DNA of 11,445 bases. Source: Octopus sinensis (Eukaryota). The position numbers and the translations under genes were made by a program. The notes under the pieces are model-generated. The model had not been told where the DNA came from and did no database searches. It worked only from the letters and a program-made list of their open reading frames with translations. Within the stretch, counting starts at the first letter, position 1. Each line of letters starts with the position of its first letter. Below, piece after piece: positions 89 through 10,310 of this stretch. The stretch covers positions 1-11,445 of the forward strand of contig NW_021828430.1 in NCBI RefSeq assembly GCF_006345805.1. Reading direction: 5' to 3'.

Positions 89-374
89 GAAGGCATATGG
101 CCTAGTGGTTAGAGCAGTAGACTTGCGGTCGTGGGATCGCGGGTTCATGTGTGTGTTTATGAGCGAAACACCTAAGCTCCACGCGGCTCCGACAGAAGGT
201 AATGGCGAAACTTCTGCTGAGTCTTACGCTACAACTTTCTCTCACTCTTTCCTCCTGCATCTTGCAGCTCACCTGCGACGGAAAGGCGTCCCGTCCAGGT
301 GGGGAACCTATACGCCAAGGAAACCAGGAAACCGGCCCTTACGAGCCACGTGTGACTCGAGAAGGAAGAAACAA
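89..374 (+). mobile_element. tRNA-derived SINE with a truncated B-box
   Basis: A-box TGGCCTAGTGG at 98-108, then TTAGAGC and a tRNA-like arm. The B-box starts as GGGTTC (141-146) and is cut short. GC-rich body (CCTGCGACGG...CGTCCCGTCCAGG...GGAAACC), short A-rich end, then a (TATG)n microsatellite. Confidence 0.75.
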
Positions 375-1003: not shown

Positions 1004-1190
1004 TACAGTTCTATATTTAAGAGATGAGAAATTATGTGCATTATTTACATTATTTACATTTGTCGGATATTTGTCATCATCTTGTTACTTGCTCACACAA
1101 CGTTTCGGCTGATATACCCTCCAGCCTTCATCAGGAGTCTTGGGGAAATTTCGAACCTTGGTTCTCATTCCTAAGGTATTTTTCGATGTT
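1004..1190 (-). mobile_element. Penelope-like terminal-repeat (pLTR-like) module carrying a minimal hammerhead motif; 3' part of a composite element
   Basis: Minus strand reads AACATCGAAAAATACCTTAGG...AGACTC-CTGATGA-AGGCTG..CAGCC-GAAACGTT-GTGT...TGTAAATAATGTAAATAATG...TATAGAACTGTA. Positions 1041-1135 recur inverted at 2048-2139. Confidence 0.7.
1095..1138 (-). ncRNA. Minimal type I hammerhead ribozyme motif, palindromic stem III (dimer type), slightly degenerate
   Basis: ACTC-CTGATGA(1134-1128)-A-GGCTG-[10 nt]-CAGCC-GAAA(1106-1103)-CG-TT-GTGT. Stem II is a perfect 5 bp. The AACGTT palindrome replaces stem III. Stem I ACTC/GTGT has one mismatch. Putative cleavage triplet GUU. Confidence 0.6.
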
Positions 1191-1223
1191 GCTATTATTA
1201 TCATTATTATTATTATTATTATT
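1191..1223. repeat. (ATT)n microsatellite
   Basis: Directly visible; forms the left flank of the 1224-1785 insert. Confidence 0.9.
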
Positions 1224-1785
1224 GAGTGAGAGAGCAGTGCATGCCATCAAAGTGACACTGGGGTAAAATATACAAAGCCCAATATACCCATCATGACTAC
1301 CCGTCTGATAAAGGTACACCAGGTACATGCATCACAACCATATGTGCGCGACATGGTGATCTCATATCATGATAAACAGCACATGACCTTGCAGGTGGGG
1401 CCCAGTTAGAATTTTCTTCAGGTTGAGAGCCCATCCCGCTCAAAAGGTCCCTGAATAAGGGTTGTTTAAGGATGTTGAAAGAACCACCCATGTTTCCAGA
1501 GGTGAATTATTCAAACCCCCAACAATCCCTCTCAACACATGGCTATGATGCTCCCCCACTACTTCTGCTCGTGATCAGAGATGCACATACGTCAGCCACT
1601 AAGGGACATGCTCAACTGGTTAGGTCAAACAACTGACAAGCAAATCTGTGGTATTGAGCAGAATATTTGCTGTAGCCCATCTTTTATACCAAGACAAAAC
1701 AATGTACATGATAACACTTCCAATCAGTTAAGATCAGAAGCCATGAGAGCCACTGCCTGTACTGCATCAGGGCATTTACTGCATC
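1224..1785 (-). mobile_element. ~560-bp non-coding interspersed element inserted in an (AAT)n tract; probably a non-autonomous retroelement
   Basis: Complex-sequence block with sharp borders against (ATT)n on both sides, with no TIRs and no credible ORF. On the minus strand it ends ...CTCTCTCACTC-(AAT)n, and strand is inferred from that tail. A 9-bp duplication TACTGCATC lies at 1760-1768 and 1777-1785. Confidence 0.6.
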
Positions 1786-1896
1786 TATATTATTATTATA
1801 TATTATTATTATATTATTATTATTATTTATTATCATTATCATTATTATATCTTATCATATCATTATCATATTATCATTATATTATCATTATTTTCA

Positions 1897-1933
<37 letters not shown>

Positions 1934-1966
1934 AATATAATAATAATAATAATAATTTTTATTATT
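1786..1966. repeat. Degenerate (ATT)n/(ATC)n then (AAT)n microsatellite
   Basis: Directly visible, with a switch from ATT to AAT units at ~1930. Confidence 0.95.
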
Positions 1967-2047
1967 AGGTCACTGCCTGGAATCCTACTCGGAATCTTAG
2001 GGTTAGTAGCCCGCTCTCTTAACCACTACGCCATATGTCCGTGGGCA
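1967..2047 (-). mobile_element. tRNA-derived Pol III head; 5' part of the composite element
   Basis: Minus strand TGCCCACGGACATA-TGGCGTAGTGG-TTAAGAGAGCGGGCTACTAACCCTAAGATTCC-GAGTAGGATTCC-AGGCAGTGACCT. A-box at 2033-2023, degenerate B-box at 1990-1979, anticodon-like loop CT-ACT-AA. The acceptor stem does not pair, so it is not a tRNA gene. Confidence 0.8.
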
Positions 2048-2139
2048 CCTGATGAAGGCTGGAGGGTATATCAACCGAAACGTGTTAACAACAAACAATA
2101 TCAGAATACATATCCGTCAAATGTAAATAATGTAAATAA
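2046..2139 (+). repeat. Inverted partial copy of the hammerhead-bearing module (inverted repeat of 1041-1135)
   Basis: CAC-CTGATGA-AGGCTGGAGGGTATATCAACC-GAAACGTGTT...ATATCCGTCAAATGTAAATAATGTAAATAA matches the reverse complement of 1041-1135 with several substitutions and small indels. Confidence 0.9.
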
Positions 2140-2997
2140 ATATTTTTTATTTTACTAATTCATCCTATGAATCATTTGATATTTAATATAATATTATATA
2201 ATTTGTATACAATACTATAATAATTCCCCTAATTCACTGCCTTCCTCCCATTTCTACTACTCCCCAGCGTCTACCCGGACCGTCTCAACGTCCACGGGGG
2301 CTGGTAGCGCCCACATTGTGAACCTATGGATTAGACCTTCAGAAGTCCGCTTCGCCTGAAGTTTATTTATATCAATAATTTCTAAACAAACAGTGATGAT
2401 TATTAACGGTTGTTCCTACCTTACCTGTTTCAAAATTCTGGGACACGCATCTTTTCTCCTCTCACCCCACACCTCGCAGAACAAGTCTTATTGCCGGTGG
2501 GGGCCGCAATATATGTTTTGAACGGTCTCCTTTACCTAAAGTGCGAACGCTTCCCATGTTAATCCATGCAATGGACGATGTGGTAGAGTTACTTTCTCGA
2601 GCTCTTTTCATAATGCAATGTTTGGTGGTCGTATTCGGACCAGGCACCAGGTTGGTATTTGTATTGACCCCAACCGGAAAGTGTGATGACTTGATTCTGA
2701 TAGGATCCTATGGAGGAGGTGCCTGGGAGTTTTACACCCAGAACCAACCCAGAAATAGGGGGCGGAGAAAATGAATTGATGGACCCCAAGGATGACAAAA
2801 GTAAATTCTGTTACTGGAAATTATATAAACGTTGAAAATGTTTCTGATACACTGATTAAATTAAGATTCTCCTTTCAAAAACTTTTGGCCGAAGGGAAAG
2901 AAGACAGAAACGAGGAATATGGTGAATTTTGTCAGGTATAAAGGTTCACGGAATTGATTTAGAGAAATATAGAAACCATTGCAAAGCCGAGGATGTA

Positions 2998-4285
2998 TTA
3001 GGTTGGCAACTAAGTTCTCACCGTTTTTTAAATTTTAATTTTTTAAAAACGTTTAATAAAAAATAGCAACTAATTAATCAACGATGTATTCACCCTTGTT
3101 GATTACAACTTCTTCCCAACGTTCAACAAGATTTTCAATACCTCGTTGGTAGAAATCACCAGATTTCGACTCGAAAAATTCATCCAACCAAACTCTCAAT
3201 TCTGCATCAGTATTGAACGAAACTCCGCCCATAGCATTTGAAAGAGATCGAGAGAGGCGAAAATCCGTTGGTACCAAATCAGGAGAGTACGGTGGGTGTG
3301 GCAGCACTTCCCAGCATGCGTTTGAATGGCTTCCTTGGTCATATTGGCGATATGAGGGCGGGCGTTGTCGTGCAGCAGAAGAACTCCATGCTGACGATTA
3401 GGTCTTTTCTCTTGAATAGCCGTGTTGAGCCGTTCCATCTGTTGAACATAGAGTTCCGCGTTGACCGTTTGGTTCCGTTCAAGCAATTCGTAATGGATAA
3501 TCTCTTCCCAGTCCCACCATACGCACAACATCGTTTTACGCGTAAGAAGATCTTGTTTTACGCGCAGTGTCGCTTGTTTACCGGGGCTAAGCCATTCCTT
3601 ACGCTGCTTCATATTGATGTACAGGTACCATCTTTCGTCGCCAGCAACGATTCGGTAAAGAAATCGTTGTTTGTGTCCATGAGTTGAGCGGTGTCGAACA
3701 AGCAAACCAGTGGAGATTTTGGCTTATTGATTTTTGTTGTTGTCACTTAAAGCATGCGGAACCCATGCTCCATACTTCTGAACCTTTCCCATCGAGTGAA
3801 AATGCTTCTCTATAACAGTGTGGGTGCATTCCATTTTCTCTGCCAGTTCCCATGTCGCTTGACGAGAATTTTCGTGCAAAAGTTGGTTTAATTGCTCTTC
3901 ATCGAACTCAACTGGACGGCCAGAACGAGATGCGTCTTTGAGGTCAAAATTTCCATTTTTGAACTTGGCATACCAACCACGAGCGGTTCATTCAGCTATG
4001 GTACCCTCTCCATACACAGAACAAATGTCGTGAGCAGCTTTTGCGGGCTTAGAATCTTGATTAAAAGCAAAAAGGAGGTGTCGAAAATGCTCGTTTTTCT
4101 TAACTTGACATTCCATTTTAATGATCAGAAAATAAATAAAACTTAGCTAAAATTAACTAGAAAAAAAAAAGATTCCAAAATGATTCAAAAATAGATTTCT
4201 CGAAAAAGATAGATTCCAAAATTTAAAAACGCAATAAATTCCAAATTAAAAAAAAAAAAACGCGGGAGCTTAATTGCCAACCCAA
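2998..4285 (-). mobile_element. Full-length mariner (Tc1/mariner, DD34D) DNA transposon, probably mellifera subfamily, inactive
   Basis: Left TIR TTAGGTTGGCAACTAAGTTCTCACCGTTTTT starts at 2998. Right TIR (reverse complement) TTGGGTTGGCAATTAAGCTCCCGCGTTTTT ends at 4285. TA target duplications at 2996-2997 and 4286-4287. Length 1,288 bp, with an internal transposase. Confidence 0.95.
3074..4116 (-). pseudogene. Mariner transposase pseudogene
   Basis: From ATG at 4116: MECQVKKNEHFRHLLFAFN...RSGRP...WVPHAL...IVAGDERW...LHDNARPH...HPPYSPDLVPTDF...GEYIVD*. There are 34 residues between the 2nd and 3rd catalytic Asp once a 1-nt deletion at ~3314 is repaired. In-frame stops at 3990-3988 (TGA) and 3726-3724 (TAA). 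Confidence 0.95.
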
Positions 4286-4306
4286 TATATTTACTGGTAA
4301 TTATGA

Positions 4307-4807: not shown

Positions 4808-4873
4808 AAGGGGTTCCCAAACCTTTTATTTAAATGAGTTTACCCACCAATCCATTTTAATATGCTTATCCTT
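4808..4873 (+). mobile_element. Putative left end of a hAT/Charlie-type MITE
   Basis: AAGGGGTTCCCAAACCTTTT resembles the Charlie-type terminus CAGGGGTTCCCAAAC with the first base changed. Confidence 0.45.
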
Positions 4874-4878
4874 ATATA

Positions 4879-4942
<64 letters not shown>
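4874..4942. repeat. (TA)n microsatellite
   Basis: Directly visible. Confidence 0.97.
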
Positions 4943-4947
<5 letters not shown>

Positions 4948-5119
4948 TAAATATTAGGGAATAAATCCAAATTTACAGGGAAAAATCAGATTTATGATTA
5001 AATCGATTTTATAGTAAAATATTATAAAATATTATTCGAGACAAAACCACTATTTTGCAAAACAAACAAGGAAAGACTTAATTAATACATAAAATTTTAA
5101 TAAATAGTCAAAAAAACCG

Positions 5120-5162
5120 CCACTACAATCGTTTCTTGTCTTGATCGACAATCTTCAGGTGG
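5120..5162 (-). ncRNA. Minimal type I hammerhead ribozyme with an intact catalytic core
   Basis: Minus strand CCAC-CTGAAGA-TTGTC-gatcaa-GACAA-GAAA-C-gatt-G-TA-GTGG. Stem I CCAC/GTGG, core CUGAAGA, stem II TTGTC/GACAA, GAAA, stem III AC/GU with a 4-nt loop. Predicted cleavage after GUA, between 5124 and 5123. Confidence 0.85.
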
Positions 5163-5329
5163 ACTTCCAATCTAAAAAATCAATATTTTAAAATATAAAA
5201 ATAATAATTTTAAAATAATTAAAGTATGAATGAAAAAATATAAGTATATAATCCATATATAACCTATCTATAATCCATATATAAACAATATATAAACAAT
5301 ATATAAACTAAAAAAACCTATCAACAATT

Positions 5330-7904: not shown

Positions 7905-8234
7905 GGGTAAAGACCCCCTTCGGCCATGAATGACCATGGGTTGCACCTAGAAAGTTACCCTCCTAGACACAAGTCTGGGCGGGGTTGTTTATGGAAGACC
8001 AGCAGTCGCCCATGCATACCAGCCTCCCCTCTCCACGCCACCAGTGTTATCGAAGGGAAAGACAAAGGTCGATACAGCTTGGCACCAGTGACGTCGCAAC
8101 TCATTTCTACAGCTGAGTGAACTGGAGCAACGGGAAATAAAGTGCCTTGCTCGAGAACACAACACGCAGCCCGGTCCGGGATTCGAGCTCACAACCTCAC
8201 GATCGTAAGCTCGACGCTCTAACCACTGAGCCAT
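7905..8234 (-). mobile_element. tRNA-derived SINE with a CORE-like central domain
   Basis: A-box TGGCTCAGTGG (8233-8223), B-box GAGCTCGAATCC (8190-8179), ACG (Arg-like) loop. These are followed by TGTGTTCTCGAGCAAGGCACTT...CAGTTCACTCAGCTGTAGAAATGAG, which resembles the MIR/CORE domain. Tail CTTTACCCTTTA. Confidence 0.88.
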
Positions 8235-8302
8235 ATATATATATATATATATAAATTTAATAAATAAAATATATGCATATATACATACATACATATATAT
8301 AT

Positions 8303-8671
8303 GTACAGGCTTAAAAAAAGCCCTCAATGTTGGTTTCATTGTCCTGTTTTTATTCTCTATGTGTGCTGTATTTTTATTTGTATTGCTTTTACGTCCTGTT
8401 CTTGTCAATTTTTTCTTTCCTTGTTTTACCCCTCTGCAAAAGAATTTTATTTAATTCTTTTGCAGGAAGGACTTCTTCGAGCGGATCGTGTTCTGCCCTT
8501 ACCTTCGAAACACGCATTGAGTCGAACGAGGGACAGCTGATGAAGGGGAATATTCCTTGTATTGTTTGTCTTGTACTCTGTTTTTTCGTTGTTAAAAAAA
8601 GTCCGTTTCCATGTTTGTTTTTACGTTTTCGTTTCTCGTTGTGTTCTACGTTTATTTGTGGTGTCCTGTAC
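8303..8671 (+). mobile_element. T-rich ~370-bp element embedded in (TA)n, with short inverted ends and a hairpin
   Basis: TA-rich microsatellite on both sides. Termini GTACAGG and CCTGTAC. Perfect 13-bp hairpin at 8434-8465. GAAA at 8507-8510 and CTGATGA at 8537-8543. Confidence 0.5.
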
Positions 8672-9020: not shown

Positions 9021-9210
9021 GTAAAAAAAATACAAACTGGGACAAGAACGCAAAACTTTTAGAAGACGATACAAAAAACACGGACGGGACATTCGAAGCC
9101 TTCAATCTTCAGTCAAGTACCGGATCGCAATTTCGGCTGATTAATCTTGAAATTGCTCCAATCTGGCCAGGAAAATGTAAGCTAAGCGCATTAGATCCCT
9201 TGGAAGAATC
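9021..9210 (-). mobile_element. ~190-bp repeat fragment embedded in (TA)n, with a T-rich 3' tail on the minus strand
   Basis: Bounded by (TA)n on both sides. Minus strand has CAGCC-GAAA...CTGAAGA-TTGAAGGCT, then a T-rich tail similar in style to 8550-8670. Confidence 0.5.
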
Positions 9211-10090: not shown

Positions 10091-10310
10091 GACGGCGTGT
10101 TGGCAGAGTGGTTAGCACGCCGGGCAACATCTGTAGCGGCATTTCGTCCGTCTGTAGGTTCTAAGTTCAAATTCTCCCTAAGTTGACTTTGCTTTTCATC
10201 GATTTTGGGATGAAAGTACCAGTTGATGGAATAAGTATCAGTTGATCGGTGGGATCGATGTAATCGGCTTACTCCGCCCCTATTATTACTGGCCCTCCGA
10301 TAAAATTTGT
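10091..10310 (+). mobile_element. Older, more diverged copy of the same SINE family with an intact A-box
   Basis: A-box TGGCAGAGTGG at 10101-10111, B-box AAGTTCAAATTC at 10163-10174, then GTTGACTTTGCTTTTCATC...AAGTACCAGTTG...TCGATGTAATCG. Confidence 0.8.

What the first reader, a model, noticed from the sequence alone, without database searches (positions are those of the whole stretch)
1004..2047. Composite retroposon: tRNA-like Pol III head + (AAT)n + hammerhead-bearing Penelope-type tail
Seen: removing the 1224-1785 insert leaves a continuous minus-strand unit. It runs from an A/B-box tRNA-like head (2047-1967) through (AAT)n to a ~190-bp tail with a minimal hammerhead motif (1138-1095). 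Established: SINEs normally borrow the 3' end of a partner LINE, and minimal hammerheads with palindromic stem III mark the terminal repeats of Penelope-like elements. Inference: this is a SINE whose partner is a PLE rather than a LINE, i.e. a Pol III transcript carrying its own ribozyme-like module. I know of few or no described examples, but I cannot confirm novelty.
Basis: partly seen in the sequence, partly recalled or inferred. Interest (0 to 1): 0.82.

Follow-up and report, generated by a model that had tools for sequence, protein, structure and literature searches.

The report
Penelope retrotransposon with tRNA-type promoter
This stretch is the terminal repeat of a protein-coding Penelope-type jumping gene that has a tRNA-like promoter built into it, and that promoter likely starts both thousands of short SINE-like copies and possibly the full-length element, which would be unusual because RNA polymerase III normally makes only short non-coding RNAs.

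Summary
Head, (AAT)n and hammerhead tail travel together (24 of 29 head-seeded loci; 1,208 exact matches to a 37-nt hammerhead stretch). The unit is not a SINE that borrowed a tail. It is the pseudo-LTR of a Penelope/Poseidon-type element in the same genome. The head lies about 30 nt after the GIY-YIG stop codon (24 of 29 endonuclease loci). The tail holds the predicted start codon and first ~54 codons of the ORF, with the hammerhead inside them. The window also has a missed inverted arm (2048-2140), short by ~36 nt, the Penelope signature seen in 26 of 33 inverted pairs. What is new: 5' ends pile up at the tRNA +1 (44 of 54), including 4 of 8 ORF-linked repeats. The A and B boxes are perfect while the cloverleaf has decayed. 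The 2.3-kb sense strand has no ancestral T4 run (3.7-4.0 expected; P 0.01-0.05). Likely the tRNA-type promoter starts RNAs that the element's own enzyme copies. Pol III transcription and ribozyme cleavage are inferred, not shown; RNA-seq was uninformative.

The parts
1005..1190 (-). 3' part of the pseudo-LTR (main arm, full length); also the N-terminal coding region of the PLE ORF (ATG 1168-1166, 54 codons, one premature stop in this copy)
1005..1041 (-). ~36-nt terminal extension ('tail' of PLEs), present on this arm and absent from the inverted arm; in ORF-linked copies it runs straight into the element body
1094..1139 (-). minimal type I hammerhead motif: stem I 1139-1135/1098-1094 (two pairs broken here), CUGAUGA 1134-1128, extra A, stem II 1126-1122/1111-1107, GAAA 1106-1103, palindromic stem III, predicted cut 1099/1098; activity untested
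   Evidence: criteria from PMC4209133
1191..1223 (-). (AAT)n spacer, downstream half
1224..1785 (-). separate ~555-nt repeat inserted into the (AAT)n tract (3' end followed by AAT in 35 of 37 hits); no ORF; not part of the unit
1786..1966 (-). (AAT)n spacer, upstream half, degenerate and partly inverted
1967..2047 (-). tRNA-like head: +1 at 2040, A box 2033-2023, B box 1988-1980 (mutated in this copy); the copy's 5' end is at -7; in ORF-bearing copies it follows the endonuclease stop codon by ~30 nt
2048..2140 (+). inverted, 5'-truncated second arm joined directly to the head; has a second hammerhead core (2049-2055, GAAA 2077-2080, 3 nt lost at the cut site) and lacks the last ~36 nt

Best explanation
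The unit is a solo pseudo-LTR of a Penelope/Poseidon-type retrotransposon whose repeat carries a tRNA-like head, and it likely spreads as RNA started at that head by a predicted RNA polymerase III promoter and copied by the element's own reverse transcriptase and endonuclease. Shown: the complete element reads head, (AAT)n, ATG with the hammerhead inside codons ~11-26, RT, GIY-YIG, stop, then head, (AAT)n and hammerhead again. Shown: copies insert as head-to-head pairs with a ~36-nt extension on one arm and without target-site duplications. Shown: 5' ends of short and of ORF-linked copies fall at the tRNA +1. Inferred: the head came from a tRNA-derived SINE 5' end that landed between the stop codon and the hammerhead and took over as the internal promoter. 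Inferred: every repeat, also the downstream and solo ones, can then start a ~300-nt RNA that the PLE protein copies in trans, which gives the SINE-like majority. Inferred and less sure: the upstream repeat makes the full-length template by Pol III too. Inferred: the hammerhead would cut only as a dimer, as described for PLE minimal hammerheads, and is not what sets the 3' end, since copies run 58 or 94 nt past the predicted cut. The window copy is a decayed insertion later hit by another (AAT)n-seeking repeat.
For: Head directly after the endonuclease in 24 of 29 and tail downstream in 28 of 29 EN-seeded loci (four of them near-duplicates). Tail end abuts the ORF in 24 of 30 N-terminus-seeded loci. 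The tail frame aligns to the unnamed PLE protein P0003 at 37-44% over 139-150 aa, including the hammerhead codons. RT PF00078 E 9e-9. 26 of 33 head-to-head pairs have one full arm and one short by 25-50 nt, matching PMC8557442. 5' ends: 44 of 54 copies that reach +7 stop between +7 and -18; rate 0.065 per nt against 0.009 inside the head and 0.005 upstream. Only 6 of those 44 are fold-backs at the palindrome, and 18 have no adjacent inverted piece. 4 of 8 ORF-linked upstream repeats start at -7 to +3. A box 9 of 9 and B box 7 of 7 by column majority, while acceptor stem pairs are 2 of 7. No T4 run by column majority over 2,344 columns, 4.0 expected, P 0.02. 0 against 3.7 under codon-preserving shuffles of copy L173, P 0.008, with no depletion in 13 control reading frames. 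T4 runs in decayed copies are mostly private, at most 4 of 32 copies at one site.
Against: No transcript 5' end was seen: three RNA runs gave equal depth on both strands and no pile of starts or ends. Foreign Poseidon-type pieces are also somewhat T4-poor (121 seen, 167 expected) and 2 of 26 pieces of 1 kb or more have none, which moves the chance of zero nearer 0.05. The T4 test is one family, hence one ancestral observation; L143 (1 against 0.9) and L156 (0 against 0.5) are too short to tell. 4 of 8 ORF-linked repeats extend upstream of the head into the endonuclease. No subfamily markers separate short from ORF-linked copies, so independent SINE-like amplification is not proven. D. virilis Penelope has a LINE-like internal promoter at the matching place (PMC2377424), so a Pol II start at the head would give the same 5' peak. 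An uncapped Pol III RNA is a poor mRNA (own knowledge). Sampled anchors are not fully independent.
Confidence: 0.68

Rival explanations
1. Ordinary 5'-truncated PLE copies. The tRNA-like insert is a passenger or acts under Pol II. The 5' peak comes from a Pol II start at that place, from RNase P-like cutting in front of the tRNA-like fold, or from reverse transcriptase leaving the template at the small palindrome.
For: Short and ORF-linked copies are the same sequence. PLEs are known for heavy 5' truncation. A 5-bp palindrome sits at -7 to +5, and 6 of 44 copies fold back there. The Penelope promoter is internal and LINE-like. Zero T4 also occurs in 2 of 26 foreign pieces.
Against: Perfect A and B boxes with decayed stems fit a promoter better than an RNase P substrate. 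38 of 44 head-start copies are not fold-backs. T4 absence is specific to T and to this family within the genome.
Confidence: 0.24
2. A separate SINE whose master gene joined a tRNA head to a PLE tail and used the PLE in trans; ORF-linked heads would be later recombinants (closest to the first reader's view).
For: Head-start copies far outnumber ORF-linked ones: 5 of 50 hammerhead-seeded, head-bearing copies go beyond -20. They are slightly less diverged, median 5-6% against 7% (biased by how loci were seeded).
Against: The head follows the endonuclease in 24 of 29 loci and in most of the 30 best RT-EN copies; headless cases look like deletions or insertions. No diagnostic columns. No headless sister family turned up.
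Confidence: 0.06
3. Chance juxtaposition in an AAT tract, or a conventional LINE-mobilised SINE.
For: The AAT tract does attract other retroposons.
Against: Co-occurrence 24 of 29. The tail is PLE coding sequence. No poly(A) or repeat 3' end. Target-site duplications of 7 nt or more in 2 of 44 against 0.7 in shuffled pairs.
Confidence: 0.01

Closest known systems
Penelope/Poseidon clade PLEs (PMC8557442 passages; PMC4209133 parts 1-2 of 4; PMC2377424 passages)
   Same: RT plus C-terminal GIY-YIG with CCHH, no linker zinc finger, pseudo-LTR partial tandems, adjacent inverted 5'-truncated copy, 30-40-nt extension that overlaps the ORF start, minimal hammerhead with an extra base before stem II and a palindromic stem III.
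   Different: A tRNA-like head with intact A and B boxes and an (AAT)n leader sits at the promoter position, where D. virilis Penelope has a LINE-like Inr/DPE promoter. 5' ends peak there and the sense strand lacks T4 runs. None of the 13 foreign pieces with a hammerhead after the ORF showed an A/B pair; 1 of 80 foreign loci matched a relaxed pattern that finds 11 of 30 loci of this family.
Schistosoma Sm-alpha/Sj-alpha (seen only through PMC6765202, PMC2770079 and PMC8490949 passages; original papers not seen)
   Same: tRNA-derived, apparently Pol III-made, SINE-like unit with a type I hammerhead downstream of the promoter.
   Different: Those are described as tandem repeats cut from multimers, with no named autonomous parent in the passages seen. 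Here copies are dispersed, mostly inverted pairs, run past the cut site, and are the terminal repeat of an ORF-bearing PLE.
TRIMp3: Cassandra, Helenus, Ajax (PMC10886601 passages)
   Same: A small-RNA-derived Pol III promoter inside the terminal repeat of a retroelement, proposed to come from a SINE insertion.
   Different: Those are non-autonomous LTR elements with PBS, PPT and 4-5-bp duplications, and the paper argues that their autonomous partners must use Pol II. Here the repeat belongs to the protein-coding element itself.
Animal non-LTR retrozymes (10.64898/2026.07.22.740005, part 1 of 5) and non-autonomous Chlamys such as MRC1 (PMC8557442 passage)
   Same: Short non-coding derivatives of PLE terminal repeats.
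   Different: Retrozymes are tandem arrays with a hammerhead in each unit; no tRNA head was mentioned in the parts read.

Membership tests
Penelope/Poseidon PLE (parent element) | Reverse transcriptase ORF | tested here: met
   PF00078 E 9e-9 in L173; 12 homologs at 27-68% carry PF28514 and PF26215, 11 of them PF00078
Penelope/Poseidon PLE (parent element) | C-terminal GIY-YIG endonuclease with CCHH motif | tested here: met
   Two Cys between the GIY- and YIG-like motifs plus two His read; 29%, E 6e-22 to the C-terminus of P0010, which carries PF01541. Pfam itself did not hit the decayed copies
Penelope/Poseidon PLE (parent element) | No CX2-5CxxC zinc finger in the RT-EN linker | tested here: met
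   Absent by reading translations; criterion
Penelope/Poseidon PLE (parent element) | Pseudo-LTR partial tandem | tested here: met
   Tail abuts the ORF start in 24 of 30 loci; L360 is a complete head-to-head unit
Penelope/Poseidon PLE (parent element) | Inverted 5'-truncated copy and 30-40-nt extension on one end | tested here: met
   26 of 33 pairs; the window itself
Penelope/Poseidon PLE (parent element) | Minimal hammerhead in the pseudo-LTR (sequence features) | tested here: met
   Core, extra A, G-C closing pair, palindromic CG, stem I 5 bp and stem II 5-6 bp in 168 arms; the same layout with other stems in foreign relatives
Penelope/Poseidon PLE (parent element) | Hammerhead cleavage as a dimer | not testable with these tools
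   Needs an in vitro assay; the cut-site triplet is GUU, a weak one (own knowledge)
Penelope/Poseidon PLE (parent element) | Placement by RT phylogeny | not tested
   No reference clade sequences in hand; the clade label rests on motifs
tRNA-derived SINE | tRNA-derived head with A and B boxes | tested here: met
   Boxes 9 of 9 and 7 of 7; best of 20 genomic tRNAs is Arg(TCT), about 5.7 SD above shuffles, Ala(TGC) close
tRNA-derived SINE | No Pol III terminator in the body | tested here: met
   No T4 in head, spacer or tail of the window copy
tRNA-derived SINE | Transcribed by Pol III | not testable with these tools
   RNA runs showed no strand bias and no start pile
tRNA-derived SINE | A non-autonomous family distinct from its partner | tested here: not met
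   The head is part of the ORF-bearing element; no fixed differences in 81 + 185 columns
tRNA-derived SINE | A-rich or repeat 3' end and target-site duplications | tested here: not met
   Fixed 3' ends at two positions; duplications 2 of 44 against 0.7
Non-LTR retrozyme / Sm-alpha type | Head-to-tail arrays with a hammerhead in each unit | tested here: not met
   33 head-to-head pairs against 8 same-strand rows, most of them split alignments, in 58 loci

The most novel reading that the evidence does not exclude
The whole protein-coding retrotransposon is a Pol III transcription unit: a captured tRNA-type promoter makes the ~2.8-kb template RNA, selection has purged T4 terminators from its ORF, the (AAT/AAC)n tract is its leader, and the same promoter in downstream and solo repeats spawns a self-made, PLE-mobilised SINE-like family of about 10^4 copies.
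Probability: 0.4. Interest if true: 0.88.

Novelty: new variant of a known kind. Interest (0 to 1): 0.7.

Why it matters
SINEs are defined as passengers of LINEs, and autonomous retrotransposons are taken to need Pol II (stated in PMC10886601). Here a PLE appears to carry its own SINE-type promoter and to produce SINE-like copies from its terminal repeat. That would extend the Pol III promoter capture known from Cassandra and Helenus to a third retroelement class, and to an autonomous element. It offers a model for the origin of Sm-alpha-type hammerhead SINEs. It also makes two open PLE questions testable on a ~300-nt substrate: what the enzyme needs in cis, and what the hammerhead does when it lies inside the ORF's first codons. 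For annotation, such copies will be mislabelled as SINEs or MITEs.

Tried and rejected
Rfam on the window and on L017 gave no tRNA or hammerhead hit. ARAGORN gave none. Monomer folding was not better than shuffles. A partner search through Pfam GIY-YIG (30 loci) and 20 larger PLE regions found only other PLE families with other hammerheads; the parent was found through sequence upstream of the head. A pattern for compensatory stem II variants gave 19 matches, all double mutants of this family, so no covariation within the genome. The subfamily test gave one low P (0.0003) at the B-box CpG, confounded by seeding on an exact B box; I do not count it. No solved structure matched. Run search: no listed holder was on record as RNA. 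Laying three raw RNA runs of one study and one contig set showed reads over tail, head and ORF, both strands alike, with no start or end pile; it cannot tell own transcription from read-through. Metagenome search with P0003 alone and viral contigs gave nothing. DNA around the closest homologs P0001-P0004 was not seen, so whether they share the head is open. Their low Phe content (2.2-2.5% against 4-6% in 7 of the 8 more distant ones) is a lead only. Earlier scan notes: nothing in three look-ups. Literature: nine searches listed no paper describing a PLE with a tRNA-type head, judged from titles, abstract starts and the passages named. Repbase, Dfam, SINEBase and most subscription papers were not searchable, and no supplements were opened, so the family may already be deposited.

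Full report
Observation. The hammerhead core is at 1134-1128 and 1106-1103, with an extra A before stem II and a palindromic AACGUU. These are the features given for PLE minimal hammerheads in PMC4209133 (parts 1-2 of 4 read). Rfam, ARAGORN and monomer folding do not detect either module.

Family. The genome is 2.72 Gb; that it is an octopus-like animal is my guess from its repeats and is unverified. It has 1,208 exact matches to the 37-nt hammerhead stretch and 1,121 to a 29-nt head pattern, with 0 for the controls. Only 1 of 23 and 3 of 64 otherwise-seeded arms match the 37-mer exactly, so a rough estimate is 2-3 x 10^4 arms. Copies are 5-7% from the column majority. Head and tail co-occur in 24 of 29 head-seeded loci, 21 of 29 with an inverted piece upstream, and in 50 of 90 hammerhead-seeded loci (90 of the 100 listed of 1,208). 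In 58 loci there are 33 head-to-head pairs, 26 with one full arm and one 25-50 nt short. PMC8557442 (passages) names the adjacent inverted copy and the 30-40-bp one-sided extension as PLE hallmarks. Target-site duplications are not above background (2 of 44 against 0.7).

The parent. Other PLE families lacked the tail. Several heads were preceded by the end of a GIY-YIG frame. Seeding on that frame, 24 of 29 loci have the head right after the stop and 28 of 29 have the tail (L151 and L157-159 are near-duplicates). Longer loci give an N-terminal region, RT (PF00078, E 9e-9) and endonuclease. All 30 loci examined from a search with a distant homolog were this family. At the other end the tail runs directly into the ORF in 24 of 30 loci, 17 with the hammerhead and 7 with the head. 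The tail is in frame from an ATG (window 1168) and aligns to the N-terminus of homolog P0003 at 37-44%, hammerhead codons included. So the unit is the pseudo-LTR, as in D. virilis Penelope, where a 34-bp repeat marks the ORF start (PMC2377424 passages). The Penelope/Poseidon label rests on motifs, not on a tree. All copies seen are decayed; the longest stop-free stretch was 551 aa.

Is the head a working promoter? Four lines bear on it. First, of 79 head-bearing anchors (one duplicate dropped), 54 reach +7 and 44 of them end between +7 and -18, a rate 7 to 13 times that of the neighbouring stretches; only 6 of the 44 are fold-backs. Second, 4 of 8 ORF-linked upstream repeats start at -7 to +3 and 4 extend into the endonuclease. 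Third, the A and B boxes match consensus fully (box consensus recalled) while stems have decayed: acceptor 2 of 7, T 3 of 5, anticodon 3 of 5. The nearest of 20 genomic tRNAs from a partial set of isotypes is Arg(TCT), narrowly. Fourth, a prediction made before the test: a Pol III template should lack T4 runs. The body has none over 2,344 columns (4.0 expected, P 0.02) and none in L173 under codon-preserving shuffles (3.7 expected, P 0.008). Three intact ORFs of other PLE families have 9-10 each, and none of 13 control frames is T4-depleted. Twenty-seven decayed RT-EN copies have 0.46 per kb, mostly private.

Results against. Foreign Poseidon-type pieces (44 of 80 loci used, duplicates and some short pieces left out) have 121 T4 runs against 167 expected, and 2 of 26 long pieces have none, so the T4 result is nearer P 0.05. 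G4 runs are also absent by column majority, though not below expectation in L173. Short and ORF-linked copies share one sequence (39 against 100 heads, 37 against 94 tails). RNA reads cover the element on both strands equally with no start pile. A Pol II start at the same place would give the same 5' peak.

Hammerhead. Thirteen of the 44 foreign pieces, probably two families, plus L376, show the same layout after the ORF with different stems. This supports a conserved motif. Cleavage is untested, and copies extend well past the predicted cut, so cleavage does not set the inserted 3' end. None of those pieces showed an A/B pair, which suggests that the head is a lineage-specific gain; the pattern finds only 11 of 30 loci of this family, so the test is weak.

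Insert. It is a separate ~555-nt element, 80-98% identical among near-full hits, followed by AAT in 35 of 37 and preceded by it in 17 of 21 hits, with no ORF. Removing it is justified.

Known relatives and novelty. Sm-alpha/Sj-alpha are tRNA-derived SINE-like elements with hammerheads, apparently Pol III-made (PMC6765202, PMC2770079, PMC8490949 passages; originals not seen). Cassandra, Helenus and Ajax put Pol III promoters in LTRs of non-autonomous elements (PMC10886601 passages). Animal retrozymes derive from PLE repeats (preprint, part 1 of 5). A recent octopus repeat annotation lists many unclassified SINEs and 30 recently active Penelope families without such detail in the passages seen (PMC13282606). 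Nine searches listed no description of a PLE with a tRNA-type head; repeat databases could not be checked.

Verdict. That the unit is the pseudo-LTR of a Penelope-type element is close to certain (about 0.97). That short copies start at a Pol III promoter is likely (about 0.7). That the full-length template is Pol III-made is open (about 0.4). New variant of a known kind; interest 0.7.

Noticed in passing
window 5110-5165 (-), beside the (TA)n tract at 4873-4954: A second, unrelated minimal hammerhead motif (CUGAAGA core, stem II 5 bp, stem I 4 bp) at the edge of a long A/C-rich repeat with internal duplications (to ~7900); probably another PLE-derived end.
   Followed up: partly
window 8505-8575 (+) and 9085-9135 (-): Further hammerhead-core-like strings in repeats next to (TA)n; the first has GAAA before CUGAUGA, as in a permuted form. 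Not tested.
   Followed up: no
window 2993-4290 (-): Decayed mariner-like transposase (family name recalled from motifs).
   Followed up: no
window 91-150 (+), 8150-8235 (-), ~10095-10200 (+): Other tRNA-like SINE heads; the first shares its first ~20 nt with this head and may point to the donor SINE family.
   Followed up: partly
window 1224-1785 and 47 hits in fetched loci: A ~555-nt non-coding element that inserts into (AAT)n with fixed ends; partner unknown. 3' ends of Dong/R4-like LINEs (label recalled) also sit in the AAT tract in L026, L124, L137.
   Followed up: partly
L091-L095, L110: Other PLE families with intact 775-883-aa ORFs, an upstream ORF and their own hammerheads; several loci also hold a short repeat with a CUGUUGA/CUGUGGA core variant (L091, L103, L107, L109).
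   Followed up: partly
P0001-P0004, P0007: Phe content about half that of the other homologs at similar composition; could reflect T-run avoidance in the whole subclade.
   Followed up: no
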